Part shown: positions 43,362-63,311 of the stretch, in pieces
How the letters are laid out: every line of letters starts with the position of its first letter
Position numbering within the stretch: position 1 is the first letter of the stretch
Source: Escherichia coli
Lineage (GTDB): Bacteria; Pseudomonadota; Gammaproteobacteria; Enterobacterales; Enterobacteriaceae
Direction: 5' to 3' (one strand)
Length of the DNA stretch: 64,000 nucleotides
Assembly (NCBI RefSeq): GCF_029227855.1
Contig: NZ_CP074356.1
Notes under the pieces: model-generated
What the model saw: the letters and a program-made list of their open reading frames with translations, nothing else
Told to the model about the DNA's origin: nothing
Database searches by the model: none
Translations under genes and position numbers: made by a program

Positions 43362-46320
43362 CCTTAATCGCGTCATCGGATGGTCTGGTTTACTGCTGAC
43401 GTCTTTATTGAGTACCAGCGCACTCGCAGACAATATCGGCACCAGCGCAGAAGAGCTGGGGCTGAGCGATTATCGCCATTTTGTTATTTATCCCCGTCTC
43501 GACAAGGCGCTGAAGGCACAGAAAAATAACGACGAAGCAACCGCCATCCGCGAATTTGAATATATACACCAGCAGGTGCCGGATAATATTCCGCTAACTT
43601 TATACCTTGCGGAAGCCTATCGCCATTTTGGTCATGATGACCGGGCGCGGCTGTTGCTTGAGGATCAACTGAAACGTCACCCAGGAGATGCCCGACTTGA
43701 GCGCAGTCTGGCGGCTATTCCAGTTGAAGTGAAAAGCGTTACGACTGTTGAAGAACTGCTTGCCCAGCAAAAAGCGTGCGATGCTGCGCCGACCCTGCGT
43801 TGTCGCAGTGAAGTTGGGCAGAATGCCCTGCGGCTGGCACAATTACCTGTCGCCAGAGCGCAACTGAACGATGCGACGTTTGCTGCATCGCCGGAAGGAA
43901 AAACGCTGCGAACCGATCTGCTGCAACGGGCAATCTACCTGAAGCAATGGTCCCAGGCAGATACGCTATACAATGAAGCACGCCAGCAGAACACATTAAG
44001 CGCGGCAGAACGCCGCCAGTGGTTTGATGTGCTTCTTGCCGGGCAGCTGGACGATCGGATCCTGGCGCTGCAATCACAGGGGATCTTCACCGATCCGCAG
44101 TCATATATTACTTACGCGACCGCGCTGGCTTATCGTGACGAAAAAGCACGCCTCCAGCGTTATCTCATTGAAAATACGCCGCTATTTACCACGGACGCAC
44201 AAGAGAAAAGTTGGCTCTATCTGTTATCTAAATACAGCGGCAACCCCGTTCAGGCGTTGGCGAATTATACGGTACAGTTTGCCGATAACCGCCAGTATGT
44301 TGTTGGCGCGACGCTACCGGTGCTGTTAAAAGAAGGTCAGTACGACGCAGCGCAAAAACTGCTCGCCACCCTCCCCGCCAATGAAATGCTTGAGGAGCGT
44401 TATACCGTTAGCGTGGCGACCCGTAACAAGGCTGAAGCTCTGCGTCTGGCACGATTGCTGTATCAGCAAGAACCGGCAAATCTTACCCGCCTGGATCAAC
44501 TGACCTGGCAACTGATGCAGAACGAGCAGTCACGCGAAGTTGCCGATTTATTGCTGCAACGCTATCCTTTCCAGGGCGATGCGCGTGTCAGCCAGACTTT
44601 AATGGCGCGACTGGCGTCTCTGCTGGAAAGTCATCCTTACCTGGCAACTCCGGCGAAGGTGGCGATTTTATCGAAACCCTTACCGCTGGCGGAGCAACGT
44701 CAGTGGCAAAGTCAGTTGCCGGGTATTGCAGATAATTGCCCGGCAATAGTTCGCTTGCTGGGCGATATGTCGCCTTCCTACGATGCCACCGCCTGGAACC
44801 GTCTGGCAAAGTGTTATCGGGACACGCTACCCGGTGTGGCGTTGTATGCATGGCTTCAGGCCGAACAACGACAACCGAACGCCTGGCAACATCGTGCGGT
44901 AGCCTATCAGGCGTATCAGGTTGAGGACTACGCCACCGCACTGGCGGCCTGGCAGAAAATCAGTCTTCACGACATGAGCAATGAGGATCTGCTTGCTGCT
45001 GCCAATACCGCCCAGGCGGCAGGAAATGGTGCGGCTCGCGATCGCTGGCTTCAGCAGGCAGAACAACGTGGGCTGGGAAACAATGCCCTCTACTGGTGGC
45101 TGCATGCGCAACGTTACATTCCTGGTCAGCCGGAACTCGCACTGAACGATCTCACGCGCTCAATCAATATTGAGCCTTCTGCCAACGCTTACGTTGCGCG
45201 GGCGACAATTTATCGCCAACGTCATAATGTCCCGGCGGCGGTGAGTGATTTGCGCGCCGCGCTGGAACTGGAACCGAATAATAGCAACACCCAGGCAGCG
45301 CTCGGTTACGCCTTGTGGGATAGCGGTGATATCGCACAGTCGCGGGAAATGCTCGAACAGGCGCATAAAGGGCTACCGGACGATCCGGCACTTATCCGAC
45401 AACTGGCCTACGTGAACCAGCGTCTGGATGACATGCCTGCGACGCAGCACTACGCCCGGCTGGTGATTGATGACATTGATAATCAGGCGCTGATAACCCC
45501 ACTGACCCCAGAGCAAAATCAGCAACGCTTCAATTTCCGCCGTCTGCATGAGGAGGTCGGTCGCCGCTGGACGTTCAGTTTCGATTCTTCTATCGGCTTG
45601 CGTTCCGGCGCAATGAGTACCGCTAACAATAATGTCGGCGGCGCAGCGCCAGGGAAAAGCTATCGTAGCTATGGGCAACTGGAAGCCGAGTACCGCATCG
45701 GACGCAATATGCTGCTGGAAGGCGACCTGCTCTCAGTTTATAGCCGCGTCTTTGCCGATACCGGAGAAAACGGGGTGATGATGCCGGTGAAAAATCCGAT
45801 GTCCGGCACCGGTCTGCGCTGGAAGCCGCTGCGCGATCAGATCTTTTTCCTCGCCGTCGAACAGCAGTTGCCGCTGAACGGGCAAAATGGCGCATCCGAT
45901 ACCATGCTGCGCGCCAGCGCCTCATTCTTTAATGGCGGCAAATACAGCGACGAATGGCACCCGAACGGTTCAGGCTGGTTTGCCCAAAACCTGTACCTCG
46001 ATGCGGCGCAATATGTCCGCCAGGATATTCAGGCGTGGACGGCAGATTATCGCGTAAGCTGGCATCAGAAGGTGGCGAACGGACAGACTATTGAGCCTTA
46101 CGCTCACGTTCAGGACAACGGTTATCGTGATAAAGGCACTCAGGGCGCGCAGCTTGGCGGTGTCGGGGTCCGCTGGAATATCTGGACCGGCGAGACGCAC
46201 TACGACGCCTGGCCGCACAAAGTCAGTCTCGGCGTCGAATATCAACATACCTTTAAGGCGATTAATCAACGTAACGGAGAGCGCAACAACGCGTTTCTCA
46301 CCATTGGAGTGCACTGGTAA
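43348..46320 (+). CDS. nfrA: NfrA, outer-membrane phage N4 receptor (TPR plus beta-barrel)
   Basis: 990-aa product MKENNLNRVIGWSGLLLTSLLSTSALA...; overlaps the nfrB 3' end by 14 bp. Confidence 0.93.
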   Translation: MKENNLNRVIGWSGLLLTSLLSTSALADNIGTSAEELGLSDYRHFVIYPRLDKALKAQKNNDEATAIREFEYIHQQVPDNIPLTLYLAEAYRHFGHDDRARLLLEDQLKRHPGDARLERSLAAIPVEVKSVTTVEELLAQQKACDAAPTLRCRSEVGQNALRLAQLPVARAQLNDATFAASPEGKTLRTDLLQRAIYLKQWSQADTLYNEARQQNTLSAAERRQWFDVLLAGQLDDRILALQSQGIFTDPQSYITYATALAYRDEKARLQRYLIENTPLFTTDAQEKSWLYLLSKYSGNPVQALANYTVQFADNRQYVVGATLPVLLKEGQYDAAQKLLATLPANEMLEERYTVSVATRNKAEALRLARLLYQQEPANLTRLDQLTWQLMQNEQSREVADLLLQRYPFQGDARVSQTLMARLASLLESHPYLATPAKVAILSKPLPLAEQRQWQSQLPGIADNCPAIVRLLGDMSPSYDATAWNRLAKCYRDTLPGVALYAWLQAEQRQPNAWQHRAVAYQAYQVEDYATALAAWQKISLHDMSNEDLLAAANTAQAAGNGAARDRWLQQAEQRGLGNNALYWWLHAQRYIPGQPELALNDLTRSINIEPSANAYVARATIYRQRHNVPAAVSDLRAALELEPNNSNTQAALGYALWDSGDIAQSREMLEQAHKGLPDDPALIRQLAYVNQRLDDMPATQHYARLVIDDIDNQALITPLTPEQNQQRFNFRRLHEEVGRRWTFSFDSSIGLRSGAMSTANNNVGGAAPGKSYRSYGQLEAEYRIGRNMLLEGDLLSVYSRVFADTGENGVMMPVKNPMSGTGLRWKPLRDQIFFLAVEQQLPLNGQNGASDTMLRASASFFNGGKYSDEWHPNGSGWFAQNLYLDAAQYVRQDIQAWTADYRVSWHQKVANGQTIEPYAHVQDNGYRDKGTQGAQLGGVGVRWNIWTGETHYDAWPHKVSLGVEYQHTFKAINQRNGERNNAFLTIGVHW

Positions 46321-47211
46321 ATGCGTAAGTTCATTTTCGTATTGCTGACACTGCTTTTGGTCAGCCCTTTTTCCTTTGCGATGAAAGGTATTATCTGGCA
46401 ACCACAAAACCGTGATAGTCAGGTTACCGATACCCAGTGGCAGGGGCTGATGAGTCAGTTACGTTTGCAAGGCTTCGATACCCTGGTTTTGCAATGGACC
46501 CGTTACGGCGATGCATTCACCCAGCCAGAACAGCGCGCGTTATTGTTTAAGCGTGCAGCAGCTGCGCAACAGACTGGCCTGAAGCTGATTGTCGGGCTGA
46601 ATGCCGATCCGGAATTTTTTATGCACCAGAAACAGTCATCCGCGGCGCTGGAAAGCTATCTTAATCGCCTGCTGGCTGCCGATCTCCAGCAAGCCAGATT
46701 ATGGAGCGCCGCGCCTGGCGTAACGCCGGATGGCTGGTACATCAGCGCGGAAATTGACGACCTGAACTGGCGCAGCGAAGCCGCCCGTCAACCGTTGCTG
46801 ACATGGTTAAACAACGCGCAGCGGTTGATTAGCGATGTTTCAGCAAAACCGGTTTATATCAGTAGTTTTTTCGCCGGAAACATGTCGCCAGATGGCTATC
46901 GCCAACTGCTGGAACAAGTTAAAACAACCGGCGTTAATGTCTGGGTACAGGATGGCAGCGGCGTGAATAAACTTACCGCTGAACAGCGTGAACGTTATCT
47001 ACAGGCCAGCGCCGATTGCCAAAGTTCCGCCCCTGCCAGCGGCATTGTTTATGAACTGTTTGTCGCCGGCAAAGGCAAAACCTTTACAGCGAAACCGAAA
47101 CCGAATGCAGAGATCGCCTCGCTGTTAGCGAAACGTTCCTCTTGCGGTAAAGACACGCTCTATTTCTCTCTGCGCTATTTGCCCGTCGCACACGGCATTC
47201 TCGAGTATTAA
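46321..47211 (+). CDS. ybcH: YbcH, uncharacterized secreted protein co-transcribed with nfrA
   Basis: 296-aa ORF with signal peptide MRKFIFVLLTLLLVSPFSFA; starts at the base after the nfrA stop. Confidence 0.88.
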   Translation: MRKFIFVLLTLLLVSPFSFAMKGIIWQPQNRDSQVTDTQWQGLMSQLRLQGFDTLVLQWTRYGDAFTQPEQRALLFKRAAAAQQTGLKLIVGLNADPEFFMHQKQSSAALESYLNRLLAADLQQARLWSAAPGVTPDGWYISAEIDDLNWRSEAARQPLLTWLNNAQRLISDVSAKPVYISSFFAGNMSPDGYRQLLEQVKTTGVNVWVQDGSGVNKLTAEQRERYLQASADCQSSAPASGIVYELFVAGKGKTFTAKPKPNAEIASLLAKRSSCGKDTLYFSLRYLPVAHGILEY

Positions 47212-47393
47212 ATCCCCTCCAGGTAAGTCGGGTACGACCTGGCTTACCTCTTTCGCTCTCGTCAGAATTCCATCAAGATTAATTGCTAAAAAGCGTGCTA
47301 AAGAAAGAAGATCGTTATCGGCGAACGGGCCGATCACTCATGCAGGAAGCATAGATCCTTTGAGCGGAGTTTCTGATATCTGAGGAGTGCGAA

Positions 47394-48155
47394 ATGCAAT
47401 TGAGCAGCAGTGAACCTTGCGTGGTGATCCTGACCGAAAAAGAGGTAGAGGTAAGCGTTAATAACCATGCCACGTTTACCCTTCCGAAAAATTACCTGGC
47501 CGCCTTCGCGTGCAACAATAACGTCATTGAACTCTCAACGTTAAATCACGTATTAATCACCCACATCAACCGCAACATCATCAACGATTATCTGTTGTTT
47601 TTAAATAAGAACTTAACCTGCGTAAAGCCCTGGTCGCGGCTGGCTACCCCGGTTATCGCTTGTCATAGCCGTACACCGGAAGTGTTCCGGCTAGCCGCCA
47701 ACCACAGCAAGCAGCAACCCAGCAAACCCTGCGAAGCGGAGTTGACGCGCGCATTGCTTTTTACCGTATTGTCTAACTTTCTTGAGCAATCGCGGTTTAT
47801 TGCCCTACTGATGTATATCTTACGCAGCAGCGTCCGCGACAGCGTCTGCCGCATTATTCAAAGCGATATTCAGCATTACTGGAATCTGCGAATTGTCGCC
47901 AGTTCGCTATGTTTAAGCCCCAGCCTGCTCAAAAAGAAATTAAAAAACGAAAATACCAGCTATAGCCAGATTGTCACAGAGTGTCGTATGCGTTACGCCG
48001 TACAGATGTTATTGATGGATAACAAAAATATCACTCAGGTAGCGCAATTATGTGGCTATAGCAGCACGTCGTACTTTATCTCTGTTTTTAAGGCGTTTTA
48101 CGGCCTGACACCGTTGAATTATCTCGCCAAACAGCGACAAAAAGTGATGTGGTGA
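47394..48155 (+). CDS. envY: AraC-family transcriptional regulator EnvY
   Basis: 253-aa ORF MQLSSSEPCVVILTEKEVE... with C-terminal AraC-type helix-turn-helix. Confidence 0.9.
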   Translation: MQLSSSEPCVVILTEKEVEVSVNNHATFTLPKNYLAAFACNNNVIELSTLNHVLITHINRNIINDYLLFLNKNLTCVKPWSRLATPVIACHSRTPEVFRLAANHSKQQPSKPCEAELTRALLFTVLSNFLEQSRFIALLMYILRSSVRDSVCRIIQSDIQHYWNLRIVASSLCLSPSLLKKKLKNENTSYSQIVTECRMRYAVQMLLMDNKNITQVAQLCGYSSTSYFISVFKAFYGLTPLNYLAKQRQKVMW

Positions 48156-48200
48156 AGGGCAAAGCGGAAACGGATAAGACGGGGATAAATGAAGAAGAAA

Positions 48201-48277
48201 TGGCGCGCCCTGCAGGATTCGAACCTGCGGCCCACGACTTAGAAGGTCGTTGCTCTATCCAACTGAGCTAAGGGCGC
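48201..48277 (-). tRNA. argU: tRNA-Arg (anticodon UCU), argU
   Basis: Reverse complement reads GCGCCCTTAGCTCAGTTGGATAGAGCAACGACCTTCTAAGTCGTGGGCCGCAGGTTCGAATCCTGCAGGGCGCGCCA; cloverleaf with TCT anticodon and CCA end. Confidence 0.95.
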
Positions 48278-48519
48278 GTTGATACCGCAATGCGGTGTAA
48301 TCGCGTGAATTATACGGTCAACCCTTGCTGAGTCAATGGCTTTTGATCTGGTTGCTGAACAAGTGAACGACCGCGTCTGATTTTCTGATTTATTTCGCTA
48401 TAGCGGCAAACAAACGCACATTGCTGCGCGTCTGAATCAAGAAAACCCGTATTTTTATGTATCAAAGTACAATTTCCCGCCCTAACGGAAAATTGTCCGA
48501 TCCAATGAGACTGGTAACT

Positions 48520-49152
48520 ATGAAACCAACGTCGGTGATCATTATGGATACTCATCCTATCATCAGAATGTCTATTGAAGTTCTGTTGCAAAAAAACAAT
48601 GAATTGCAAATTGTCCTGAAAACGGATGATTATCGCATAACCATCGATTATCTCCGAACCCGTCCTGTTGATTTAATCATTATGGATATAGACTTGCCCG
48701 GAACAGACGGTTTTACCTTCCTGAAAAGGATCAAACAAATCCAGAGCACAGTGAAAGTATTATTTTTATCATCGAAATCAGAATGCTTTTATGCTGGCAG
48801 AGCGATACAAGCTGGTGCTAACGGTTTTGTCAGTAAATGCAATGATCAGAATGATATTTTTCATGCCGTTCAGATGATCCTCTCCGGATACACTTTTTTT
48901 CCCAGCGAAACGCTCAACTATATAAAAAGCAATAAATGCAGTACGAATAGTTCAACGGTCACGGTGCTATCTAATCGTGAAGTGACCATATTACGTTATC
49001 TGGTTAGCGGATTATCCAATAAAGAAATTGCCGATAAGTTATTACTTAGCAATAAAACAGTTAGTGCGCATAAATATAATATTTATGGCAAGCTAGGTTT
49101 GCATTCAATTGTAGAGCTTATCGACTACGCCAAATTATATGAATTAATATAA
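48520..49152 (+). CDS. fimZ: Fimbrial response regulator FimZ (LuxR/NarL family)
   Basis: 210-aa product MKPTSVIIMDTHPIIRMSIEVLL...; the ORF-track start at 48457 is an upstream extension. Confidence 0.92.
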   Translation: MKPTSVIIMDTHPIIRMSIEVLLQKNNELQIVLKTDDYRITIDYLRTRPVDLIIMDIDLPGTDGFTFLKRIKQIQSTVKVLFLSSKSECFYAGRAIQAGANGFVSKCNDQNDIFHAVQMILSGYTFFPSETLNYIKSNKCSTNSSTVTVLSNREVTILRYLVSGLSNKEIADKLLLSNKTVSAHKYNIYGKLGLHSIVELIDYAKLYELI

Positions 49153-49154
49153 TA

Positions 49155-49670
49155 TTAATTGTAATTGATCATAAATATCGCATCCGCTTTCGCCACACCT
49201 GGCTGAACACCGCTGGCTAACGCTCGATAATTGGCAAAAAAGTTTAGTGTGACATTGCCATTTGCATCTACTTCCTCAGTCGGACTCGCCTCCCCCAGTG
49301 CGAGCCGGGAGCGATCGCTATTACGTAATTCGATGGCGACGGTTTGTGCCATTGCGGGATCATCCAGAGCCAGCAGATTGGTATCGGATGCCGGCGTTCC
49401 CGTAAATAAAATCGCGACTGAACCCGGAGGACATCCCTCCAGCCGCAGGCTAAAAGGGACGAGTGCCGTGGTATCGCCAGCGGTCAGTAGTTGTGTCGTA
49501 GGCCATCTGCCTAAATCTACCGTCTTATCAATATCCGCTGTGTTTACGGTACAGGAGAAATCAACAACGTTACCGTGCAAATTGATATTAATCGTTCCTA
49601 AAGGGTCAACTGCCCATCCACTGGAACTCCACAGTAGCCCGCAGAAACAGCTAAAGAGCACTCTTCTCAT
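49155..49670 (-). CDS. sfmF: Fimbrial-like minor subunit SfmF
   Basis: 171-aa product MRRVLFSCFCGLLWSSSGWA...; convergent with fimZ. Confidence 0.88.
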   Translation of the reverse strand: MRRVLFSCFCGLLWSSSGWAVDPLGTININLHGNVVDFSCTVNTADIDKTVDLGRWPTTQLLTAGDTTALVPFSLRLEGCPPGSVAILFTGTPASDTNLLALDDPAMAQTVAIELRNSDRSRLALGEASPTEEVDANGNVTLNFFANYRALASGVQPGVAKADAIFMINYN

Positions 49671-49680
49671 TCTCCGTACC

Positions 49681-50688
49681 TCATTGATAATCGACGCGTA
49701 AATACCCCAGCGCGCTAAACGGCCCTTCGGTCGGTTTTTGACCGGTAATACTGATAGGCCAGGCGCGAAGTGTGACATTGGCTGCCGCAGCTGCATCCAG
49801 ACGGAAAGGAATAACGCTATTGAGATCGTTAGGCGTGATCGGCGTATCGTTCTGATCGGCCACAATAAAACCTAAATCCTGATTGTCCGACACCATCGCC
49901 TGACCAGAAACGGCACTGGCTTCCAGACGCATTGTTAAATAAGCCTGCGCAGCAACATTCGTACATTTGATCGCAATGCTCTTGGTTTGCGGCATGACAC
50001 CAGCTGGTCGATTCCCCGGCCCTGCCGCACTAAATAACGATGCGCCGATATCACCAAAATCAAATTCAACAATTTGCCCGGCATTTAATTCGCAGTTTTG
50101 CGGTACTTCAACCCGGCCACCAAAACTAATGGTATAAACAGGTGTAACCAACGGATCGTTAGGCGTTGATGTCACATACACGGTAAACATCACCTGTCTG
50201 GGGATCTCCACCATGTTAATAAAGGGACGAATAACCTTTAAACGAAATATCAAACGAGAATCCATCACCCCGAACGGAAGGTTTTGCGAAACGTTAGGAT
50301 CTGTTCCCATACGAATATAATTTTGCGGAGGGAATTGAATATCCATCACGCTATCAACCAGACTCATCGCACCTAATAGATAATCATTTAATTGCATATA
50401 TTTATAATTATCGATAGTTTCCTGAACAATAAAGTTAGTGACATAACTACGGTATGTATAATTCACCAGCGTGCCGGGTGGACAAATTGCTGACACACCT
50501 ACCCAGCCGGATTTTTCCGGTAAAACAACAATCTGGCCTGGCTGGTTATTGGTGCTATTAAAGACATTTGAGAGATCATAGTGTTCATCTTCTGCTACGC
50601 CAGTACTATTTGCACAAACAGTAGCCCAGGATATGTTTGCCAGACACAAACATGCCATTGCCAATAATAATCTGCAGATTATCTTCAT
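49681..50688 (-). CDS. sfmH: Fimbrial adhesin-like protein SfmH
   Basis: 335-aa ORF MKIICRLLLAMACLCLANISWA... Confidence 0.88.
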   Translation of the reverse strand: MKIICRLLLAMACLCLANISWATVCANSTGVAEDEHYDLSNVFNSTNNQPGQIVVLPEKSGWVGVSAICPPGTLVNYTYRSYVTNFIVQETIDNYKYMQLNDYLLGAMSLVDSVMDIQFPPQNYIRMGTDPNVSQNLPFGVMDSRLIFRLKVIRPFINMVEIPRQVMFTVYVTSTPNDPLVTPVYTISFGGRVEVPQNCELNAGQIVEFDFGDIGASLFSAAGPGNRPAGVMPQTKSIAIKCTNVAAQAYLTMRLEASAVSGQAMVSDNQDLGFIVADQNDTPITPNDLNSVIPFRLDAAAAANVTLRAWPISITGQKPTEGPFSALGYLRVDYQ

Positions 50689-50700
50689 TGATAATTTCCT

Positions 50701-53310
50701 TTATGAGCCAGGATGTGTGCAAACTGCCGAAATAACAGTGACGGCTTGCTGTAAGCTTTGCTTCGGCAATACATAGTGCGCAATGCAGCGTGAGTTCGCG
50801 CCGTCTCCCCACTGAACCAGTAATTCACCAGACAATGGCGCACCACTTAAATAAACTTGCCCGTCATCACCCACCATACTGGTTATTCCGGTACTGTTTT
50901 CCCGTACCAGTGATCCAAACGGCACCGGTTTTCCGCCCTGGGTAACGGTAATGAGCGCCCGCACGCCTATGCGGGTATCAAAATTGGCACGAACCAACGC
51001 GCCTTGCGTCGGCACAACGCTGCTAATATTTTTTTCAACATCGATGGAATTCCCCATCGTATTGGTATCAAGCGCGATACGGTTATATCGATAAACCGTG
51101 GCATACGGCATTACCGCATAGCCGCGCCAGTCGGTTAAAATTCCAGTTTGATTTTCAATGCGTACACCGCCTGCGCCTGGCGCTTTAATCAAAACATTGG
51201 TATCCCCTAAAGGCTGGCTCAGCGTTATACCATTTTCATGCCCGACCACACCGCCAGACAGCTGCCAGTTAACGTCATGTTGATCGCGGTCGTAGTTATA
51301 CCCGACCCCCAGCGTACCGTAAGCGGCCTGCCAGTTTGCCGTGGCGCTGCCCGTATACCCATTATTCGAGGTATCGCCCTGGCTTACGTGATAACTCAGG
51401 TTGTGGCCTTCCAGTAAGGTCCCACCAACGCCTGCCAGCCAGCTATTTTGCCCGTTGCTGTTACGGTTGGCGTTAAAAGAGGCATAAGCGCGGTCGAGCG
51501 CATTTTCCCGGGTGTAGCGACGTTTGGTCAGAACATTGAAAGGCACTGAAACATTAAGTCCGACAATACGTTCGTTATCGGGGATCCCTACAGATTCATT
51601 CCACGAAAATGAGAGTGAATAACTGATGCCAACCCAGCTGCTGGTATACCCCACCTGATACCAGGTATCTGAATCCGAAGTATTCCAGTATTTTTGATGG
51701 GTACCAGAGATATAAAGCGAGCCAAAGTCATTAAGTGATTGTGAAATATTTAACTGCAAACGGTCTTTACGGCTAAAGCGTAAATTGTGGTAATTCACGA
51801 TTATCGGTTCATCGCGATGCTCACCGTCATAATCGTAATCATATTCGTACCCCTCCATTCGACGATACGCAACATCATCAAGGGTATAAAAACCTTGTGT
51901 CGAATAGCGGTAACCCATTAACTGAAAATTGGTGCCGAAAGTGTTCATTGATTTCGCATAGAGGAAGCGAATGGAATCCCCCTCATGACGACTGTCGTCG
52001 GCTAACTGACTGCGCGCATGCGTTACATCCAGCGACACTGCGCCCCAGTTCCCGAGATTGCGCCCCAGCCCTAATAAAAAGGCGGTGTAATTTGCAGATA
52101 ATTGCGTCCCGCCGTAGGCAGTAAATTCCTGTGGTAAACCGCCGAGTGCCGTGCCCTGAAAAAAGAAAGGCGACGATTGCTGACTATTACCGCTACGAAA
52201 ATCACCCGCCGTCAGGTCAAATTTGAAACGCCCTTCGCGTTGTAAAATTGGCACTGTTGAATACGGAATCGTGTAATTCTGCTGATTACCATCGCGCTCG
52301 TCGATGGTGACGTCCAGATCGCCATTTGAAGATGTCGGGTGCAAATCTGTAATTTCAAAAGCGCCGGGGGAAACATAGCTTTGATAGATAATAAAACCAT
52401 TTTGCCGAATCGTTAGCTGGGCCGCCGTACGGGCAATCCCACGTACCGTTGGGGCAAACCCTTGCTGGCTATCAGGATACATATTATCGGAAGAGTAAAG
52501 CCGTACACCACGAAATCCAACGCCATCGAAAATATCACTTCCTGTATTGCCGTCTCCCATTACCAGTTCACTTTTCAGCGGAATAATGGCGCGCTGTACC
52601 CAGGTGCCAATATTATTCCACTGTTCTGAATGATATCCATTTCCGCGAAAATAGTTCCAGGAACCATTGTTGCGTAAACGCCACGGGCCAATATTAATCC
52701 CGCTGAGTTCACTAAAAAAATAGCTATCGTTACCATTACCTCTGTTACCGGTGAAATTATAATTCAGGAGTAAAGCAGGAATACCTTCATCCCACTCTTC
52801 AGGCGGAATGTAACCGTGAGCGCTACTCAACAACGCTATCTGAGGAATAGTGATGTTCAGGCGCATCGCTGCAAAATCAAAGTTAATTGTGGCATCAGGT
52901 ACAGCTTTCAGTAAATTAATGCATTTATTATTTTGCTGCTGGGCTAACTCGGGGAATGCACTGCTATTAAGGCCAATTCGTTCAAGGAGTGCCTGATTAA
53001 AACAAGGCATTAACCCACCTGATTTATCACCTGTATTTACTGTCGTCGATTCAAATACGATATCCTGTGAACCAATGAACTCATCATTACGCCAGAGATC
53101 CACCCGATACACACCCGCAGGTTGATGATTACCTCTCTCAAAGCGCGATAAATCAGCAACGGATGTGCCATTCTCTAATAAAAATGCCGGGTTGAAATAA
53201 CTTTCCGCATAGCTTAAAAAGGAGGGTAAAATGGCAAGAGATGAATAACAAATTCCGGCCAGACACCAGGTATACCTCTGCGGAATATCCGTAGTAGTGG
53301 GTATTTTCAT
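50701..53310 (-). CDS. sfmD: Fimbrial outer-membrane usher SfmD
   Basis: 869-aa usher-family ORF. Confidence 0.92.
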
Positions 53311-53340
53311 AATTAGCTCTGATATTGTCAGATGATTCGG

Positions 53341-54033
53341 TTAGTTTAAGTTCACTTCTCTGACCGGGGTTACTGAACCATAATCATTAACGGTCTGAAA
53401 TTTCAGCTTTCCCTGCACTCCTGAGGGTAAGGGAATTTGTGAATTAACTCTGGGTGCAGCCATAGCATTCCCCAGTTTTTGGCTGCCCACTTGCAAGTTA
53501 ACCAGGGTGACATAAAAAGGTGATGGATTATGAACATTGATATAGTTACCGGATCGCGAAAACTTGAGTGTGTCCGGCGCTTCTGCGGGTAATTCTTGTA
53601 ATTGAATTGGACGGAGAAATAATTTCATGCGCGATAAAATCGCCAGTTGCAAAACATTCCTGCCGTTCAATGCATTTTTATCTACCGAAGGGATCGTCTT
53701 AACATTCATCCAGAACAAAGACTCACGATCTGCCGCCAGCGGTGGACCGGTGTAAATAATACGCAAAGTATTTTCGCTTTTGGGTTCACTAACAAACAGT
53801 GGCGGTGTAATGATGAATGACTTTTCTTTTACACCGCTGCTGTTTTCAATCCACGAATTGACCAGAAAGCGCTCATTGGTATGGCTATTTCTAATCCATA
53901 CCGCAGTCTGTTTAGCATCAGCGGGATAAATAATACGCGTGGCACCTAATGCGATCCCTCCGGCAGCATGGGCGCTGGCCGAAATGATTAAATAAAATAT
54001 AATGAGCATCAATAACTTTATTTTAGTCATCAT
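53341..54033 (-). CDS. sfmC: Fimbrial periplasmic chaperone SfmC
   Basis: 230-aa PapD-like chaperone [23 protein letters not shown]... Confidence 0.92.
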
Positions 54034-54252
54034 AGTTAATACGCCTTGTGTATTCCTGACGGCAAAAATAAGGAGTATAAAGAAATGATTGCTTTGGTTT
54101 CTTACAACACATCATTCCCTTTTCATTTAATAAAGCGGCATGATACAAAGTGAGCGTGATTTCGATTTACATTGCCACCATACCGCTTCAGACAACCGGT
54201 ACATTACTTTGTTATAAGACGTGATATATAATTCAAAACAACGTGGTTTTGA

Positions 54253-54795
54253 TTATTCGTATCTCATAATAAAAGTCGCGTCAGCATTTGCTTGCCCTGC
54301 TGATGCACTTGTACCGGTGCCTTTATAACGTGCAGAAAAATGAAGAACGTTGGTCCCGGGGATCAAGTTCTGGTTGGTTGAGAAGCTATTCCCATCAGGT
54401 TTGAGAATTGCGGATGTATTATCAAGTATTTCAATACCGACACCCGTTGCTGTTGTTGTATTAGTACTGGATGCAATGGCCAATAAATTATCATTGATTG
54501 CATCCGCCTGACCAGAAAATGCAACGGCAGCATTAGCGGCAACGACAGGATCGCAGTCGTTCAACTGTATAGTGAATGGAATTAATGCAGAGGTATTACC
54601 AACAGCATTGAAAATATCGGTACGATATTGACCGAGTGTGACAACCTGGTCTGCCGAGTCAGTATTCACTGAACAGGCAGCATTCACCAGTTCGCCTTCA
54701 AAGTGAATTGTACCGCCATCTACAACGGCAGCATAACTACCCGTAGCGGCGAATAGTGCGGCGGCCAGCGCAGACGAAATAAATCTTAATTTCAT
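54253..54795 (-). CDS. sfmA: Type 1-like fimbrial major subunit SfmA
   Basis: 180-aa product [22 protein letters not shown]...; the ORF-track start at 54828 is an upstream extension. Confidence 0.9.
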
Positions 54796-55265
54796 ATATA
54801 TTCCTTCAATCTCATTTATCGACTCCACATCCGTATATAACCGATTACTTTATTTAAGACACTGATAGTAGTAAATTCCTTTTTATCCTCTAAGAATGTC
54901 TTAATTGAAAATATGCACTCTATTCTAAAAAATAGAGAGCCCCGTTAGATGAATACTTCCGCGCAAAATATATTCAACACAAATATAGACCTGAAGCGGT
55001 AAATTACCAGGCTGAAAATTCTTTTTATATTGTCAGGTATTTCTTAAATTATCTTAATCCTTTGACAAGGAAATAAGTCAGTTCCAGATTTACAACGCCA
55101 TCATGGACGAAAAATGAAGCTTTCAATCTCAGCGACAGTGCGCCTCACCTTCGCACGAGGTCGCTTCACGCGATAAATCTGAAACGAAACCTGACAGCGC
55201 GCCCCGCTTCTGACAAAATAGGCGCATCCCCTTCGACCTACGTAACAGATGGAATCCTCTCTCTG

Positions 55266-56132
55266 ATGGCAGCAAAGATTATTGACGGTAAAACGATTGC
55301 GCAGCAGGTGCGCTCTGAAGTTGCTCAAAAAGTTCAGGCGCGTATTGCAGCCGGACTGCGGGCACCAGGACTGGCCGTTGTGCTGGTGGGTAGTAACCCT
55401 GCATCGCAAATTTATGTCGCAAGCAAACGCAAGGCTTGTGAAGAAGTCGGGTTCGTCTCCCGCTCTTACGACCTCCCGGAAACCACCAGCGAAGCGGAGC
55501 TGCTGGAGCTTATCGATACGCTGAATGCCGACAACACCATCGATGGCATTCTGGTTCAACTGCCGTTACCGGCGGGTATTGATAACGTCAAAGTGCTGGA
55601 ACGTATACACCCGGACAAAGACGTAGACGGTTTCCATCCTTATAACGTCGGTCGCCTGTGCCAGCGCGCGCCGCGTCTGCGTCCCTGCACCCCGCGCGGT
55701 ATTGTCACGCTGCTTGAGCGTTACAACATTGATACCTTCGGCCTCAACGCCGTGGTGATTGGCGCATCGAATATCGTTGGCCGCCCGATGAGCATGGAAC
55801 TGCTACTGGCAGGTTGCACCACCACCGTGACTCACCGTTTCACTAAAAATCTGCGTCACCACGTAGAAAATGCCGATCTATTGATCGTTGCCGTCGGTAA
55901 GCCAGGCTTTATTCCCGGTGACTGGATCAAAGAAGGCGCAATTGTGATTGATGTCGGCATCAACCGTCTGGAAAATGGCAAAGTTGTGGGCGACGTCGTG
56001 TTTGAAGACGCGGCTAAACGCGCCTCATACATTACGCCTGTTCCCGGCGGCGTTGGCCCGATGACGGTTGCCACGCTGATTGAAAACACGCTACAGGCGT
56101 GCGTTGAATATCATGATCCACAGGGTGAGTAA
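55266..56132 (+). CDS. folD: Bifunctional methylenetetrahydrofolate dehydrogenase/cyclohydrolase FolD
   Basis: 288-aa [26 protein letters not shown]... Confidence 0.96.
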
Positions 56133-56133
56133 C

Positions 56134-56346
56134 ATGGCGACATTTTCTTTAGGTAAACATCCGCACGTTGAGCTGTGCGACTTGCTGAAACTGGAAGGCT
56201 GGAGCGAAAGCGGCGCGCAGGCGAAAATCGCGATTGCCGAAGGCCAGGTGAAAGTCGACGGTGCGGTTGAAACGCGCAAACGCTGCAAAATCGTCGCCGG
56301 GCAGACAGTGAGTTTTGCAGGTCACAGCGTACAGGTTGTTGCCTGA
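56134..56346 (+). CDS. ybcJ: S4-domain RNA-binding protein YbcJ
   Basis: 70-aa product MATFSLGKHPHVELCDLLKLEGW...; ATG 2 bp after the folD stop. Confidence 0.88.
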   Translation: MATFSLGKHPHVELCDLLKLEGWSESGAQAKIAIAEGQVKVDGAVETRKRCKIVAGQTVSFAGHSVQVVA

Positions 56347-56453
56347 TCCCTTTCCCGGCCTGTAACAACAGGCCGGTTCTCTTTTCAGACTTTTGCCCTC
56401 TACGCCCCATTCATCCATGCTGATAGCATCGACATTTTGCCGAAGCGATCATC

Positions 56454-56975
56454 ATGCCAACCGTTATTACGCACGCCGCCGTTCCCCTTTGCATTGGTTT
56501 AGGGTTGGGTTCGAAAGTCATCCCTCCGCGTCTTTTATTTGCCGGAATCGTCCTGGCGATGCTGCCTGATGCCGACGTATTGTCGTTTAAATTTGGCGTT
56601 GCTTACGGCAATGTTTTTGGTCATCGCGGGTTTACCCATTCGCTGGTGTTTGCGTTTGTTGTCCCGCTGTTATGTGTGCTGATTGGACGTCGATGGTTCA
56701 GGGCTGGGCTGATTCGCTGCTGGCTGTTTTTAACCGTCTCGTTGTTATCGCACAGCTTGCTGGATTCGGTAACCACTGGCGGTAAGGGCGTTGGCTGGCT
56801 GTGGCCGTGGTCAGATGAACGCTTTTTCGCTCCCTGGCAGGTGATTAAAGTCGCGCCGTTTGCATTGTCTCGTTACACCACGCCGTACGGACATCAGGTG
56901 ATTATTTCTGAATTGATGTGGGTGTGGTTGCCGGGGATGCTACTGATGGGAATGTTGTGGTGGTGCAGGCGATAA
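56454..56975 (+). CDS. ybcI: Inner membrane protein YbcI (DUF457)
   Basis: 173-aa hydrophobic ORF MPTVITHAAVPLCIGLGLGS... Confidence 0.88.
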   Translation: MPTVITHAAVPLCIGLGLGSKVIPPRLLFAGIVLAMLPDADVLSFKFGVAYGNVFGHRGFTHSLVFAFVVPLLCVLIGRRWFRAGLIRCWLFLTVSLLSHSLLDSVTTGGKGVGWLWPWSDERFFAPWQVIKVAPFALSRYTTPYGHQVIISELMWVWLPGMLLMGMLWWCRR

Positions 56976-57010
56976 CCGGATGCGAAAACTCGCATCCGGC
57001 AATAGCGCAA

Positions 57011-58396
57011 TTACTTACGACGCCAGGTGGTCCCTTGCGGGCCATCTTCCAGCACGATCCCCATCTCGTTAAGACGGTCACGCGCCGCATCTGCCGCCGC
57101 CCAGTCTTTCGCTTTACGGGCATCCAGACGCTGTTGAATTAACGCTTCAATCTCAGCCACTTCACTGTCGTCTGCCTGCGCGCCGCTTTGCAGGAACGCT
57201 TCCGGTTCTTGCTCCAGCAGGCCCAATACAGCGGAAAGTTTACGCAGATGAGACGCCATTGCATTCGCCGCTGCCATATCTTCTGCTTTCAGACGGTTCA
57301 CTTCACGGGCCATATCAAACAGCACGGAATAGGCTTCCGGGGTGTTGAAATCGTCGTCCATCGCTTCAATAAAGCGCGCTTCAAACGCTTCCCCACCGGC
57401 AGGCGCAACGGTTTTATCTGTGCCGCGCAGCGCAGTGTAGAGACGCTCCAGCGCCGCACGCGCCTGCTTCAGGTTCTCTTCGCTGTAGTTCAACTGGCTG
57501 CGATAGTGCCCCGACATCAGGAAGTAACGCACGGTTTCGGCATCGTAGTATTTCAGCACATCGCGCACGGTGAAGAAGTTACCCAGCGATTTGGACATCT
57601 TCTCGCGGTCAACCATTACCATCCCGGAGTGCATCCAGTAGTTCACATACTGACCATCATGCGCACAGGTGGACTGAGCGATTTCGTTTTCGTGGTGCGG
57701 GAACATCAGGTCTGAACCGCCGCCGTGAATATCAAAGTGGTTACCCAGCTGCTTGCAGTTCATTGCCGAACATTCAATGTGCCAGCCTGGACGGCCCGCG
57801 CCCCACGGCGACGGCCAGCTCGGTTCGCCCTCTTTCGACATCTTCCACAGAACGAAATCCATCGGGTTGCGTTTGTCGTCGACCACGTCAACGCGCGCGC
57901 CTGCCTGCAGCTGGTCGAGATCCTGACGCGACAGCACGCCATATGTCGGATCGGTCGGTACGTCAAACATCACGTCGCCGTTGTCCGCCACATAAGCGTG
58001 ACCTTTGGCGATCAGTTGTTCAGTGAGTTCAATAATTTCTGCGATATGGTGCGTCGCGCGCGGCTCCATATCCGGGCGCAGAATGTTCAAAGCATCAAAA
58101 TCTTTGTGCATTTCGGCGATCATGCGATCCACCAGCGCCACAAAGCTTTCGCCATTTTCATTGGCGCGTTTGATGATTTTGTCATCGATATCAGTAATGT
58201 TGCGCACATACTTCAGCTTATAGCCGAGGAAACGCAGATAGCGCGCAACCACGTCAAAGGCAACAAAGGTACGCCCGTGACCGATATGACAGAGATCGTA
58301 AACGGTGATTCCACACACGTACATGCCGACTTCCCCGGCGTGAATAGGCTTAAATTCCTCTTTTTGGCGTGTCAGAGTATTGAAGATTTTTAGCAT
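57011..58396 (-). CDS. cysS: Cysteine--tRNA ligase CysS
   Basis: 461-aa [46 protein letters not shown]... with HIGH and KMSKS motifs. Confidence 0.97.
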
Positions 58397-58569
58397 CGAA
58401 GATTCCGTTTAGACATGTGTGGGTAATTGAGTTGCGTATAATACCCATATTTCCCGCGCGAATCAGCATACATTGCGTGATGATCCGATCGTGCGGTTAT
58501 GCTATAACACCACCCTATATATGACCCGAACCGGGTTGAAGCACCAATCAAACGGAACAGGATGCAAAA

Positions 58570-59064
58570 ATGGTTACTTTCCACACCAATCACGGCGATA
58601 TTGTCATCAAAACTTTTGACGATAAAGCACCTGAAACAGTTAAAAACTTCCTGGACTACTGCCGCGAAGGTTTTTACAACAACACCATTTTCCACCGTGT
58701 AATCAACGGCTTTATGATTCAGGGCGGCGGTTTTGAGCCGGGCATGAAGCAAAAAACCACCAAAGACCCGATCAAAAACGAAGCCAACAACGGTCTGAAA
58801 AATACCCGTGGTACGCTGGCAATGGCCCGTACTCAGGCACCGCACTCTGCAACTGCACAGTTCTTCATCAACGTGGTTGATAACGACTTCCTGAACTTCT
58901 CTGGCGAAAGCCTGCAAGGTTGGGGTTACTGCGTGTTTGCTGAAGTGGTTGAAGGCATGGACGTGGTAGACAAAATCAAAGGTGTGGCAACCGGTCGTAG
59001 CGGTATGCACCAGGACGTGCCAAAAGAAGACGTTATCATTGAAAGCGTGACCGTTAGCGAGTAA
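58570..59064 (+). CDS. ppiB: Peptidyl-prolyl cis-trans isomerase B (cyclophilin) PpiB
   Basis: 164-aa [30 protein letters not shown]... Confidence 0.96.
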
Positions 59065-59066
59065 TC

Positions 59067-59789
59067 GTGGCGACACTCTTTATTGCAGATCTTCATCTCT
59101 GCGCGGAAGAACCGGCGATCACCGCCGGTTTTCTGCGTTTTTTAGCGGGGGAAGCCCGCAAGGCCGACGCGCTGTATATTCTTGGCGATCTGTTTGAAGC
59201 GTGGATTGGCGACGACGATCCCAACCCACTCCATCGCCAGATGGCGGCAGCGATCAAAGCGGTGTCCGATTCCGGTGTTCCCTGTTATTTCATTCATGGC
59301 AACCGTGATTTTCTGCTCGGCAAACGCTTTGCCCGTGAAAGCGGCATGACGTTATTGCCGGAAGAAAAGGTGCTCGAACTGTATGGTCGCCGGGTATTGA
59401 TTATGCATGGCGACACGCTGTGCACCGATGACGCCGGTTATCAGGCTTTTCGCGCCAAAGTCCACAAACCCTGGCTGCAAACGCTATTCCTCGCCCTGCC
59501 GTTGTTTGTGCGCAAACGCATTGCCGCGCGAATGCGAGCGAACAGCAAAGAAGCCAACAGCAGTAAATCGCTGGCGATCATGGACGTTAACCAAAACGCG
59601 GTGGTCAGTGCGATGGAAAAACATCAGGTGCAATGGCTGATTCACGGGCATACCCATCGCCCGGCAGTACATGAACTTATCGCCAATCAGCAACCTGCTT
59701 TCCGCGTCGTGCTGGGTGCCTGGCATACTGAAGGTTCAATGGTGAAAGTCACGGCAGATGACGTTGAGCTGATTCATTTTCCGTTTTAA
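59067..59789 (+). CDS. lpxH: UDP-2,3-diacylglucosamine pyrophosphatase LpxH
   Basis: 240-aa calcineurin-like phosphoesterase [22 protein letters not shown]... Confidence 0.95.
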
Positions 59790-59905
59790 ATACCCGCAAC
59801 TTTGCTGATTTCACAGCCACGCAACCGTTTTCCTTGCTCTCTTTCCGTGCTATTCTCTGTGCCCTCTAAAGCCGAGAGTTGTGCACCACAGGAGTTTTAA
59901 GACGC

Positions 59906-60415
59906 ATGTCTTCCCGCAATAATCCGGCGCGTGTCGCCATCGTGATGGGGTCCAAAAGCGACTGGGCTACCATGCAGTTCGCCGCCGAAATCTTCGAAAT
60001 CCTGAATGTCCCACACCACGTTGAAGTGGTTTCTGCTCACCGCACCCCCGATAAACTGTTCAGCTTCGCCGAAAGTGCCGAAGAGAACGGTTATCAGGTG
60101 ATTATTGCGGGCGCAGGCGGCGCAGCGCACCTGCCAGGCATGATTGCCGCCAAAACGCTGGTGCCAGTGCTGGGCGTGCCAGTACAGAGCGCCGCACTGA
60201 GCGGTGTCGATAGCCTCTACTCCATCGTACAAATGCCGCGCGGCATTCCGGTGGGTACACTGGCGATTGGTAAAGCTGGCGCGGCAAACGCGGCGTTACT
60301 GGCAGCACAAATTCTTGCAACTCATGATAAAGAGCTACACCAGCGTCTGAATGACTGGCGCAAAGCCCAAACTGACGAAGTGCTGGAAAACCCGGACCCG
60401 CGAGGTGCGGCATGA
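59906..60415 (+). CDS. purE: N5-carboxyaminoimidazole ribonucleotide mutase PurE
   Basis: 169-aa product [24 protein letters not shown]...; the ORF-track start at 59879 is an upstream extension. Confidence 0.96.
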
Positions 60416-61479
60416 AACAGGTTTGCGTCCTCGGTAACGGGCAGTTAGGCCGTATGCTGCGTCAGGCAGGCGAACCGTTAGGCATTGCTGTCTGGCCAGT
60501 CGGGCTGGACGCTGAACCGGCGGCGGTGCCTTTTCAACAAAGTGTGATTACCGCTGAGATCGAACGCTGGCCGGAAACCGCATTAACCCGCGAGCTGGCG
60601 CGCCATCCGGCCTTTGTGAACCGCGATGTATTCCCGATTATTGCTGACCGTCTGACTCAGAAGCAGCTTTTCGATAAGCTCCACCTGCCGACCGCACCGT
60701 GGCAGTTACTTGCCGATCGCAGCGAGTGGCCTGCGGTGTTTGATCGTTTAGGTGAGCTGGCGATTGTTAAGCGTCGCACTGGTGGCTATGACGGACGCGG
60801 TCAATGGCGTTTACGCGCCGATGAAACCGAACAGTTACCGGCTGAATCCTACGGCGAATGTATTGTCGAGCAGGGCATAAACTTCTCTGGTGAAGTGTCG
60901 CTGGTTGGTGCGCGCGGCTTTGATGGCAGCACCGTATTTTATCCGCTGACGCATAACCTGCATCAGGACGGTATTTTACGCACCAGCGTCGCTTTCCCGC
61001 AGGCCAACGCGCAGCAACAGGCACAAGCTGAAGAGATGTTGTCGGCGATTATGCAGGAGCTGGGCTATGTGGGCGTGATGGCGATGGAGTGTTTTGTCAC
61101 CCCGCAAGGTCTGCTGATCAACGAACTGGCTCCGCGTGTGCATAACAGCGGTCACTGGACACAAAACGGTGCCAGCATCAGCCAGTTTGAGCTGCATCTG
61201 CGGGCGATTACCGATCTGCCGTTACCGCAACCGGTAGTGAATAGCCCGTCGGTGATGATCAACCTGATTGGTAGCGATGTGAATTATGACTGGCTGAAAC
61301 TGCCGCTAGTGCATCTGCACTGGTACGACAAAGAAGTCCGTCCGGGGCGTAAAGTGGGGCATCTGAATTTGACCGACAGCGACACATCGCGTCTGACCGC
61401 GACGCTGGAAGCCTTAATCCCGCTGCTGCCGCCGGAGTATGCCAGTGGCGTGATTTGGGCGCAGAGTAAGTTCAGTTAA
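60412..61479 (+). CDS. purK: N5-carboxyaminoimidazole ribonucleotide synthase PurK
   Basis: 355-aa ATP-grasp ORF; start overlaps the purE stop (ATGA). Confidence 0.96.
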
Positions 61480-61498
61480 CCTGGTGCACATATTCTTA

Positions 61499-61586
61499 CC
61501 GGATTCGGCGTGAACGCCTTATCCGGCTTAACGCTCCGGTACCCATTGTAGGCCTGATAAGACGCGTCAAGCGTCGCATCAGGCAC
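61499..61586. repeat. REP/BIME elements downstream of purK
   Basis: ggattcggcgtgaacgccttatccggc and gtaggcctgataagacgcgtcaagcgtcgcatcaggc REP palindromes. Confidence 0.8.
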
Positions 61587-61605
61587 AAATGTCTAATGCC
61601 TACGA

Positions 61606-62499: not shown

Positions 62500-63311
62500 G
62501 GTTTTCCTTGTAATAATTGTTGACCAAGCCAGAACCCCAGCAGCGTATCGGCCCCTGACGTGTGCCCCAGCGCCAGCAGCGAATCAATCGCAACAGCGGT
62601 ACGTTTCGGGCAACTCAGAGCATGGACAAAGTGCAGGAGTGGCGAGGCGAAATATCCTTGCGCGGCATAACGTAAATAACTGACGCTCACCGCTGTGGTA
62701 ACGAGTTGAAGATTGTCGGAACAGACAAAAAATGGGCGACCGGAGCGCGCATCTAAAGCGCCATAATACCAGGCCGCCAGCAGCATTCCGCTCAGCGTGT
62801 CATCATGACTCGGCGTTAATCCCGGACCTTTGCCCAGCCAGTGCCGCCAGTCGGTCTTCACGCCATTGAGCGCGGCCTGAAAACAGTGGCGAAACTGGCG
62901 TAATTCAGCAGGAAGCGGATCGCCTGCCGCCAACGCCAGTGGCCCGAAAAGCCCGGTTTCCTCCGCGCGTTGCATCCATGCAGCTGCAAGCGGTTGAGGA
63001 TGCGCAGGCGGCGTAATACGCAGCAAACAATAACGCTGTGGCTGTTTAACCGTGAAACGTCCGAGGCGAATCCCTTGAGCCACTACCTTCGGTCGTTCAT
63101 TGCCGCATAATCCACCGCATAACGCATCGAATTGCGCGCGTCGAAGCACCCATCCTCCGGGGCCGAAACCACTACCCTGACGATGCAGCGTTAACAGTTC
63201 GCCGCTTTCCGTCATCAGGTTAATCGCCCGCCGCCACACGCCCGCTAACCGCCAGGACTGGCGATAATTCGGTGCGCTACGGCTGGCAAGCAGAGGATGG
63301 ATGATTGTCAT
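62496..63311 (-). CDS. ylbF: DUF2877-family protein YlbF
   Basis: 271-aa product [24 protein letters not shown]...; the ORF-track start at 63404 is an upstream extension; 4-bp overlap with the ybcF start. Confidence 0.85.

What the first reader, a model, noticed from the sequence alone, without database searches (positions are those of the whole stretch)
48156..48277. Unoccupied argU attachment site: envY lies 45 bp from the tRNA 3' end
In the K-12 map I recall, the DLP12 lambdoid prophage, appY and ompT lie between argU and envY. Here the tRNA-Arg 3' end (48201) is only 45 bp from the envY stop (48155), with no integrase or phage genes. This strain therefore lacks DLP12 and ompT/appY at this locus, which affects outer-membrane protease phenotype and shows a pristine or cleanly excised tRNA integration hotspot.
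Basis: partly seen in the sequence, partly recalled or inferred. Interest (0 to 1): 0.5.

Follow-up and report, generated by a model that had tools for sequence, protein, structure and literature searches.

The report
Empty DLP12 prophage site at argU

Summary
tRNA-Arg(UCU) lies at 48201-48277 (-) and is identical to K-12 argU. Its 3' end is 45 bp from the envY stop codon at 48155, and no integrase or phage gene lies between them.

In K-12 the 21.3-kb DLP12 element, including appY and ompT, sits between two exact 45-bp (47 with TT) copies of the argU 3' end. The window has one copy. Its 45-bp spacer matches K-12's attR-to-envY spacer at 43 of 45 bases, so this is exactly the empty attB.

The window is nearly identical to E. 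coli JNEC-KY178 (2 mismatches in 38 kb). That chromosome has no ompT, no appY and no omptin-like DNA, and its only plasmid has no annotated omptin.

The state is ordinary:
- 2531 of 5426 complete E. coli genomes (46.6%) have the same envY-argU junction.
- 43% lack ompT.
- The 47-bp repeat and strains without DLP12 are already published (PMC6379469).

One addition: strain E300010 shares a 17-kb tract around the site (3 mismatches) but has a 14.3-kb decayed DLP12-type remnant there. This mildly favours precise loss over a never-occupied site. Interest is low.

The parts
47394..48155 (+). envY (AraC-family regulator), the chromosomal gene that flanks attR in occupied genomes
   Evidence: ORF of 253 aa. 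Annotated envY in 100%-identical genomes. Collinear with K-12 envY at 98% identity.
48156..48200 (.). 45-bp spacer between the envY stop and the argU 3' end; homologous to the K-12 segment between the attR repeat and envY
   Evidence: 43 of 45 bases identical to K-12 L001 26103-26147. No terminator-like hairpin: fold z-score +0.58 and no terminator hit in the spacer.
48201..48277 (-). argU, tRNA-Arg(UCU), intact
   Evidence: ARAGORN and Rfam RF00005 at 72 bits. 77 of 77 nt identical to K-12 argU.
48199..48245 (-). Single copy of the DLP12-type att core: the 3' 45 nt of argU from the anticodon loop to CCA, plus TT. This is the empty attB.
   Evidence: In K-12 this sequence occurs twice as an exact direct repeat, at L001 4756-4802 and 26058-26104, bracketing DLP12. 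It occurs once in the window. The two K-12 alignment blocks overlap at window 48199-48248.
48309..48336 (-). Promoter-like site upstream of argU (TTGACT-16-TATAAT, 11 of 12)
   Evidence: Consensus scan. The -10 element ends 32 nt upstream of the tRNA 5' end. This is a consensus match only.
48520..49152 (+). fimZ, the chromosomal gene flanking argU on the attL side; spacing is the same as in K-12
   Evidence: Annotated fimZ in KE55 at the equivalent position. K-12 has fimZ 242 bp from argU.
46141..63276 (.). 17-kb tract around the site that is nearly identical to strain E300010, where the same att site holds a 14.3-kb DLP12-type remnant
   Evidence: 3 mismatches in 17,136 bp (positions 49076, 55082, 62172) against 1-2% divergence outside the tract. 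E300010 has two core copies 14,340 bp apart, with intD, appY and ompT between them.

Best explanation
The interval 48156-48277 is the unoccupied bacterial attachment site (attB) of DLP12-type lambdoid prophages.

**How the site works.** These phages encode a tyrosine integrase (IntD). It recombines a phage copy of the last 45 nt of argU with the chromosomal gene. Integration leaves an intact tRNA gene at attL and a 45-47-bp partial copy at attR, next to envY. ompT and appY (or other cargo) ride at the attR end of the prophage. The window has one core copy and no element, so this locus carries no DLP12, ompT or appY. The nearly identical complete genome has no ompT or appY anywhere. That much is shown directly.

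**How the site came to be empty (inferred).** I think it most likely that a decayed DLP12-type remnant was lost precisely, rather than that the site was never occupied. The loss could have been Int-mediated excision or recombination between the 47-bp repeats, occurring in this lineage or in the donor of the 17-kb tract around the site.
For: **Anatomy**
- K-12 DLP12 is bounded by an exact 45(+2)-bp repeat of the argU 3' end.
- The window has one copy. Its left flank matches K-12 attR-right and its right flank matches K-12 attL-left. The spacer matches at 43 of 45 bases.
- In other strains ompT always lies just inside attR, next to envY, with varying cargo. A B2 strain keeps a mini-remnant there with an integrase fragment and ompT.

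**Whole-genome absence**
- JNEC-KY178 matches the window with 2 mismatches in 38,167 bp.
- Its chromosome shows one place, not two, in the chimeric ompT and appY searches.
- The number of distant-mode places is unchanged with or without ompT in the query.
- Its sole plasmid has no annotated omptin.

**Loss rather than never occupied**
- E300010 has only 3 mismatches to the window over 17.1 kb spanning the site, with none within 2,015 bp on the left or 799 bp on the right.
- E300010 nevertheless holds a 14.3-kb remnant between two core copies. The remnant has an intact intD and truncated Q, tail and other genes.
- Such a remnant cannot have decayed within so short a divergence, and an imported one should have brought donor polymorphisms in the flanks.
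- Similar remnants at 99.5% identity exist in other strains.
- DLP12 excision is measurable in K-12 (PMC9782134; PMC4632033).
Against: There is no scar and no core polymorphism that would distinguish an excised site from a virgin one.

Only three genomes carry this flank haplotype. Two are empty and one is occupied, so parsimony is weak. The next-closest haplotype, KE55, is empty, and at 99.4% identity the two states are mixed.

No genome-wide phylogeny was possible. The outgroup scan for the junction gave nothing usable.

Absence of ompT was tested on the nearly identical public genome, not on the unseen remainder of the window's own genome. It was tested at the DNA level only.
Confidence: 0.6

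Rival explanations
1. The site is pristine. This lineage's argU haplotype never carried a DLP12-type prophage, and E300010 acquired its remnant later.
For: Empty sites are very common: 2531 of 5426 genomes. They occur in diverse backgrounds, including strain 042, O157:H7, ST540 and KE55. The two closest genomes to the window (JNEC-KY178, UID2309220033) and the next closest (KE55) are all empty and lack ompT. There is no scar in the core or spacer.
Against: E300010's element is a decayed 14.3-kb remnant, not a fresh phage. It lies in flanks with 0 mismatches for 2 kb on the left and 1 mismatch in 2 kb on the right relative to the window. Gain by homologous recombination should have imported donor flank differences. 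Gain by integrase would need an already decayed element to be delivered as a circle.
Confidence: 0.37
2. The junction is an assembly collapse, or a non-specific deletion that only resembles an att site.
For: A 45-bp repeat could in principle cause an assembler to collapse the intervening DNA.
Against: The identical junction is present in 2531 independent complete genomes, many of them long-read assemblies. The boundaries fall exactly at the repeat ends, with intact flanks and an intact tRNA. The matching complete chromosome has no ompT or appY anywhere, so no displaced element exists.
Confidence: 0.02

Closest known systems
E. coli K-12 MG1655 argU::DLP12 locus (NC_000913 564723-586908)
   Same: Same argU sequence (77 of 77 nt). 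Same flanking genes: fimZ-sfm on one side and envY-ybcH-nfrA-nfrB on the other. Same 45-bp spacer next to envY (43 of 45). Flanks are 98% identical.
   Different: K-12 has a 21.3-kb decayed lambdoid prophage (intD ... appY, ompT) between two 45(+2)-bp core copies. The window has one core copy and no insert.
Empty argU sites described by Ramisetty & Sudhakari 2019 (PMC6379469) and seen here in strains 042, KE55, an O157:H7 strain and ST540
   Same: Identical arrangement, with envY contiguous with argU. That paper already aligns loci with and without DLP12, notes the 47-bp attR, and reports DLP12 at this locus in 74% of 638 strains. Here 2531 of 5426 genomes are empty.
   Different: Nothing structural. 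The window is another member of this class. My frequency (53% not empty) differs from their 74%, probably because of the strain set and the definition used.
E. coli E300010 (NZ_CM128601.1) argU locus
   Same: 17.1 kb of flanking DNA is nearly identical to the window (3 mismatches), including envY, the spacer, argU, fimZ and the sfm operon.
   Different: It carries a 14,340-bp DLP12-type remnant with intact intD, an ompC-like porin gene, a lysis cassette, appY and ompT between two core copies. The rest of the compared region is about 2% divergent and lacks the vgrG/Rhs island.
ompT-negative E. coli and Shigella (for example E. coli B/BL21 and Shigella; recalled from memory, not tested here)
   Same: No OmpT protease gene. 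In this collection 2331 of 5426 complete E. coli genomes lack ompT by megablast.
   Different: As I recall, B strains lost ompT through a larger deletion that also removes neighbouring genes. Here the neighbours are intact and the boundary is the att core. This comparison rests on memory only.

Membership tests
Unoccupied attB of DLP12-type (argU-integrating lambdoid) prophages | The target gene is argU, tRNA-Arg(UCU), and it is intact | tested here: met
   ARAGORN and Rfam both call it. 77 of 77 nt identical to K-12 argU.
Unoccupied attB of DLP12-type (argU-integrating lambdoid) prophages | Exactly one copy of the 45-47-bp core that is duplicated as attL and attR in lysogens | tested here: met
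   The core occurs twice in the K-12 locus and twice in E300010, but once in the 64-kb window, at 48201-48245.
Unoccupied attB of DLP12-type (argU-integrating lambdoid) prophages | Sequence on either side of the core is collinear with the outer flanks of attL and attR in an occupied genome | tested here: met
   Window 42302-48248 aligns to the K-12 envY side and 48199-53007 to the K-12 fimZ side, overlapping only in the core. The spacer matches at 43 of 45.
Unoccupied attB of DLP12-type (argU-integrating lambdoid) prophages | No integrase or phage genes between the flanking chromosomal genes | tested here: met
   The ORF list and the annotation of identical genomes show envY, then tRNA-Arg, then fimZ, with nothing between.
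Unoccupied attB of DLP12-type (argU-integrating lambdoid) prophages | The site is a competent substrate for IntD-type integrase | not testable with these tools
   This needs an integration assay. It is inferred from sequence identity with the cores that flank integrated elements.
DLP12 lysogen (occupied argU) | intD-type integrase gene immediately 3' of argU, and a second core copy next to envY | tested here: not met
   There is no integrase ORF and only a single core. Compare K-12 and E300010.
Omptin-negative E. coli | No ompT or other omptin gene in the genome | tested here: met
   Tested on the nearly identical complete genome JNEC-KY178. There is no ompT place by megablast. The ompT part of the query adds no place in distant blastn. 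Its only plasmid has no annotated omptin. This is a DNA-level test on a proxy genome.
Omptin-negative E. coli | Lack of OmpT proteolytic activity | not testable with these tools
   This needs a protease assay on the strain.

The most novel reading that the evidence does not exclude
On one 17-kb haplotype with 0.02% divergence, the argU site is found both empty (the window, JNEC-KY178) and holding a 14.3-kb decayed DLP12 remnant with an intact intD (E300010). If the empty state arose by precise excision, then 'grounded' DLP12 remnants still excise cleanly in nature. OmpT and AppY status would then flip on very short timescales within otherwise identical chromosomal backgrounds.
Probability: 0.55. 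Interest if true: 0.25.

Novelty: already known. Interest (0 to 1): 0.12.

Why it matters
The practical value is strain typing. This strain, a close match to the Japanese clinical isolate JNEC-KY178, lacks three things at this locus. One is the OmpT outer-membrane protease, which is used as an extraintestinal virulence marker and is a nuisance protease in protein production. The second is the AppY regulator, reported to affect acid resistance, biofilm formation and motility (PMC10057817). The third is the DLP12 lysis cassette.

Biologically this is a textbook presence/absence polymorphism at a tRNA integration site, shared by almost half of sequenced E. coli genomes. It opens no new question. 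The only mildly interesting point is the nearly identical haplotype found in both states. That pair could be used to study natural excision of decayed prophages.

Tried and rejected
**Outgroup scan.** I scanned genome contigs with the 20-mer junction GCAGGGCGCGCCATTTCTTC to find other Escherichia species with the envY-argU junction. It returned three MAG contigs.
- Two (L009 Acidobacteriaceae, L011 Deltaproteobacteria) show no blastn similarity to the window, so they are chance matches.
- One (L010, 'Collinsella') is misbinned E. coli attR DNA.
- No outgroup information was obtained, and the cap for that scan is now used.

**Remnant architecture.** I searched with E300010's remnant to see whether its architecture is widespread. 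Only two genomes cover 80% or more of it. DLP12-type remnants are too mosaic for this to settle the direction of the event.

**Haplotype carriers.** A chimeric search of right flank plus ompT, meant to count states among carriers of the flank haplotype, found only three carriers. That is too few for parsimony.

**Terminator in the spacer.** I looked for one shared by the convergent envY and argU transcripts. The scan found none and the fold is no better than shuffles, z = +0.58.

**Lindsey et al. 1989.** The original DLP12/argU paper (PMC210489) is not held, so the att description rests on my own alignment and on PMC6379469.

**Other rejected options.** Assembly collapse is rejected because the junction recurs in 2531 independent genomes. 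A first attempt at a 25,001-base query exceeded the length limit.

Full report
**1. The observation**

ARAGORN finds a single tRNA in the 64-kb window. It is tRNA-Arg with anticodon TCT, at 48201-48277 on the minus strand. Rfam's tRNA model hits the same place. The 253-aa ORF at 47394-48155 (+) is annotated EnvY in genomes that are 100% identical over this stretch.

The gap between the envY stop codon (48155) and the tRNA 3' end (48201) is 45 bp. On the other side, fimZ starts 242 bp from the tRNA 5' end, as in K-12. No integrase or phage ORF lies in or next to the interval. The coordinates and the description are correct.

**2. The K-12 comparison**

In MG1655 the gene order is fimZ, argU, intD, then the rest of DLP12, then appY, ompT, envY, ybcH and nfrA. 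The record annotates 'cryptic prophage DLP12' at 564755-586056.

Reading the two ends and checking by script gives the following.
- The last 45 nt of argU (CTTCTAAG...GCGCGCCA) plus the next two bases (TT) occur twice as an exact direct repeat, at L001 4756-4802 and 26058-26104.
- 21,257 bp lie between the end of argU and the second copy.
- The second copy is followed by 45 bp and then the envY stop codon.
- Those 45 bp match the window's spacer at 43 of 45 positions.
- The window has one copy of the core, at 48201-48245 on the minus strand.
- The argU sequence is identical in the window and in K-12 (77 of 77).

blastn of the window against the K-12 locus gives two blocks. Window 42302-48248 matches the envY side at 98.0%. 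Window 48199-53007 matches the fimZ side at 98.2%. The blocks overlap only in the core.

The window therefore equals K-12 attL-left joined to attR-right through one core. That is the definition of an empty attB. The K-12 right arm, from just after tfaX to attR, has 34.9% G+C against 51% for the window. This fits foreign cargo.

**3. How common the empty site is, and whether it is known**

A 600-bp query centred on the junction is covered at 80% or more in one place in 2531 of 5426 complete E. coli genomes, or 46.6%. The 1201-bp query gave 2501. Examples include strain 042, KE55, an O157:H7 strain and ST540.

The remaining genomes show either of two patterns.
- Two separate places, with the envY side ending at the core. 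These are occupied sites.
- Only an argU-proximal match at 93-94% identity.

Sampled occupied sites always have ompT just inside attR, next to envY. The other cargo varies: appY in some, an alpha/beta hydrolase and a methyltransferase in others. One strain of the second kind (NCTC9022) has a mini-remnant in the order ybcH, ompT, methyltransferase, tail-fibre fragment, integrase fragment, argU, folD.

ompT itself is found in 3095 of 5426 genomes, or 57%. Because 3095 + 2531 exceeds 5426 by 200, at least 200 genomes have an empty argU site and ompT elsewhere. O157:H7 TR01, for example, has an ompT 100% identical to K-12's next to minCDE, in a decayed prophage context.

The literature already covers this.
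- Ramisetty & Sudhakari 2019 (PMC6379469) align loci with and without DLP12, describe the 47-bp attR, and report DLP12 at this locus in 74% of 638 genomes.
- PMC10057817 describes appY as DLP12 cargo integrated at argU.

**4. Whether the strain lacks ompT and appY altogether**

The window is 100% identical over 25 kb to E. coli JNEC-KY178, a clinical isolate from Japan. It differs at 2 positions in 38,167 bp.

To query that specific genome I used chimeric queries. Each joined a window piece that ranks this genome first to K-12 ompT or appY in the opposite orientation, so that the two parts could not be merged into one place.
- JNEC-KY178 shows one place for the ompT chimera.
- It shows one place for the appY chimera.
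- Occupied relatives such as E300010 show two places in both searches.
- In distant blastn mode JNEC-KY178 shows two places with the ompT part and two without it. The ompT part therefore adds nothing. E300010 goes from two places to three.

The assembly has one plasmid, the 40-kb pKY178, with no annotated omptin. The next accession belongs to a different strain.

The support comes from a nearly identical proxy genome and from DNA-level searches only.

**5. Pristine or excised**

The core and spacer carry no scar, so the sequence of the site cannot decide this. Strain E300010 (stool, Mozambique) is informative.

Between window positions 46141 and 63276 it differs from the window at only 3 positions in 17,136 bp. 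Outside that tract the divergence is 1-2%, and E300010 lacks the vgrG/Rhs island. Yet E300010 has two core copies 14,340 bp apart. Between them lie an intact intD, truncated Q and tail genes, an ompC-like porin gene, a lysis cassette, appY and ompT. The nearest mismatches to the site are 2,015 bp to the left and 799 bp to the right.

Each alternative to precise loss has a difficulty.
- A phage could not decay to this remnant within 0.02% divergence.
- Import of a remnant by homologous recombination should have brought donor flank differences, and none are seen.
- Integrase-mediated gain would require an already decayed element to arrive as a circle.

Precise loss needs one event. DLP12 excision is measurable in K-12 (PMC9782134; PMC4632033).

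Against this, only three genomes carry the haplotype, two empty and one occupied. The next-closest haplotypes are empty or mixed. E300010's remnant architecture is nearly unique.

I put precise loss at about 0.6 and a never-occupied site at about 0.37. This step is inference, not demonstration.

**6. Mechanism**

From established knowledge of lambdoid tyrosine integrases and tRNA-gene attachment sites, the phage attP carries a copy of the tRNA 3' segment. Integration therefore regenerates an intact argU at attL and leaves a partial copy at attR. Excision by Int and Xis, or RecA recombination between the repeats, restores the single-copy site.

The anatomy here fits each of these points. Whether this particular site is a competent substrate was not testable.

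A side consequence concerns downstream context. envY keeps the same 3' context in both states, namely the spacer plus the core. The context downstream of argU changes from the end of intD to the spacer and envY. No intrinsic terminator is apparent in the spacer.

**7. Verdict**

The observation and the interpretation are both correct. However, this is an already described and very common presence/absence polymorphism, not a new feature. Interest is low.

The only added value is threefold: the strain assignment, the genome-wide absence of ompT and appY in the nearly identical genome, and the paired occupied and empty haplotypes, which hint at recent clean excision.

Noticed in passing
window 27000-41000: A type VI secretion effector island lies between cusS and nfrB. 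It contains vgrG (27735-29636), a DcrB-like gene, a 4.8-kb Rhs gene (30145-34974), orphan rhs and PAAR fragments that repeat internal rhs segments at about 94% identity, and an ISAs1 transposase gene. It is present in KE55 and JNEC-KY178 but absent from E300010, where nfrB follows cusS directly.
   Followed up: partly
window 11267-12159: Two tandem hokE/sok toxin-antitoxin copies. hokE lies at 11267-11419 and 11771-11923, and Rfam finds sok at 11411-11567 and 11915-12069. E300010 has an IS100 between its two copies.
   Followed up: no
window 16443-17034: An IS200C transposase gene with an adjacent Rfam STnc490 RNA (144.6 bits) lies between ybdG and pheP. It is absent at this position in E300010.
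   Followed up: no
window 6856 and 14703: These are the only two differences from JNEC-KY178 in 38 kb, and both are nonsynonymous: Fes V338M and NfsB M127I (JNEC to window). nfsB encodes the oxygen-insensitive nitroreductase.
   Followed up: partly
window 46141-63276: This tract has 3 mismatches to E300010, while flanking sequence is 1-2% divergent. It is a recently shared recombinant segment covering ybcH through the all-gene region.
   Followed up: yes
L010 (JAIJJM010000316.1, 'Collinsella sp.' MAG) 1-260: The contig begins with the E. coli envY 3' end, the spacer, the att core and then the DLP12 attR interior. It is E. coli DNA from an occupied site that has been misbinned into a Collinsella MAG.
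   Followed up: partly
L014 (O157:H7 TR01, NZ_CP033605.1 1591692-1606645): An ompT 100% identical to K-12's sits near minCDE. It has the same cargo neighbours seen at argU in other strains (alpha/beta hydrolase, methyltransferase, tail-fibre fragment) plus IS66 and IS1203. The ompT cargo module therefore also occurs at another chromosomal site.
   Followed up: partly
window 45651-48150 (query); the target was not located: In distant blastn mode this nfrA-ybcH-envY piece has a second matching place in nearly every E. coli chromosome (median of 2 places). This implies a paralogous segment elsewhere in the genome.
   Followed up: no
H174, NZ_CP096587.1 (strain EC6622) 3429873-3437489: A rearranged mini-remnant in which intD, an IS1 and ompT lie within about 3 kb of argU. 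ompT is inverted relative to the usual arrangement.
   Followed up: no
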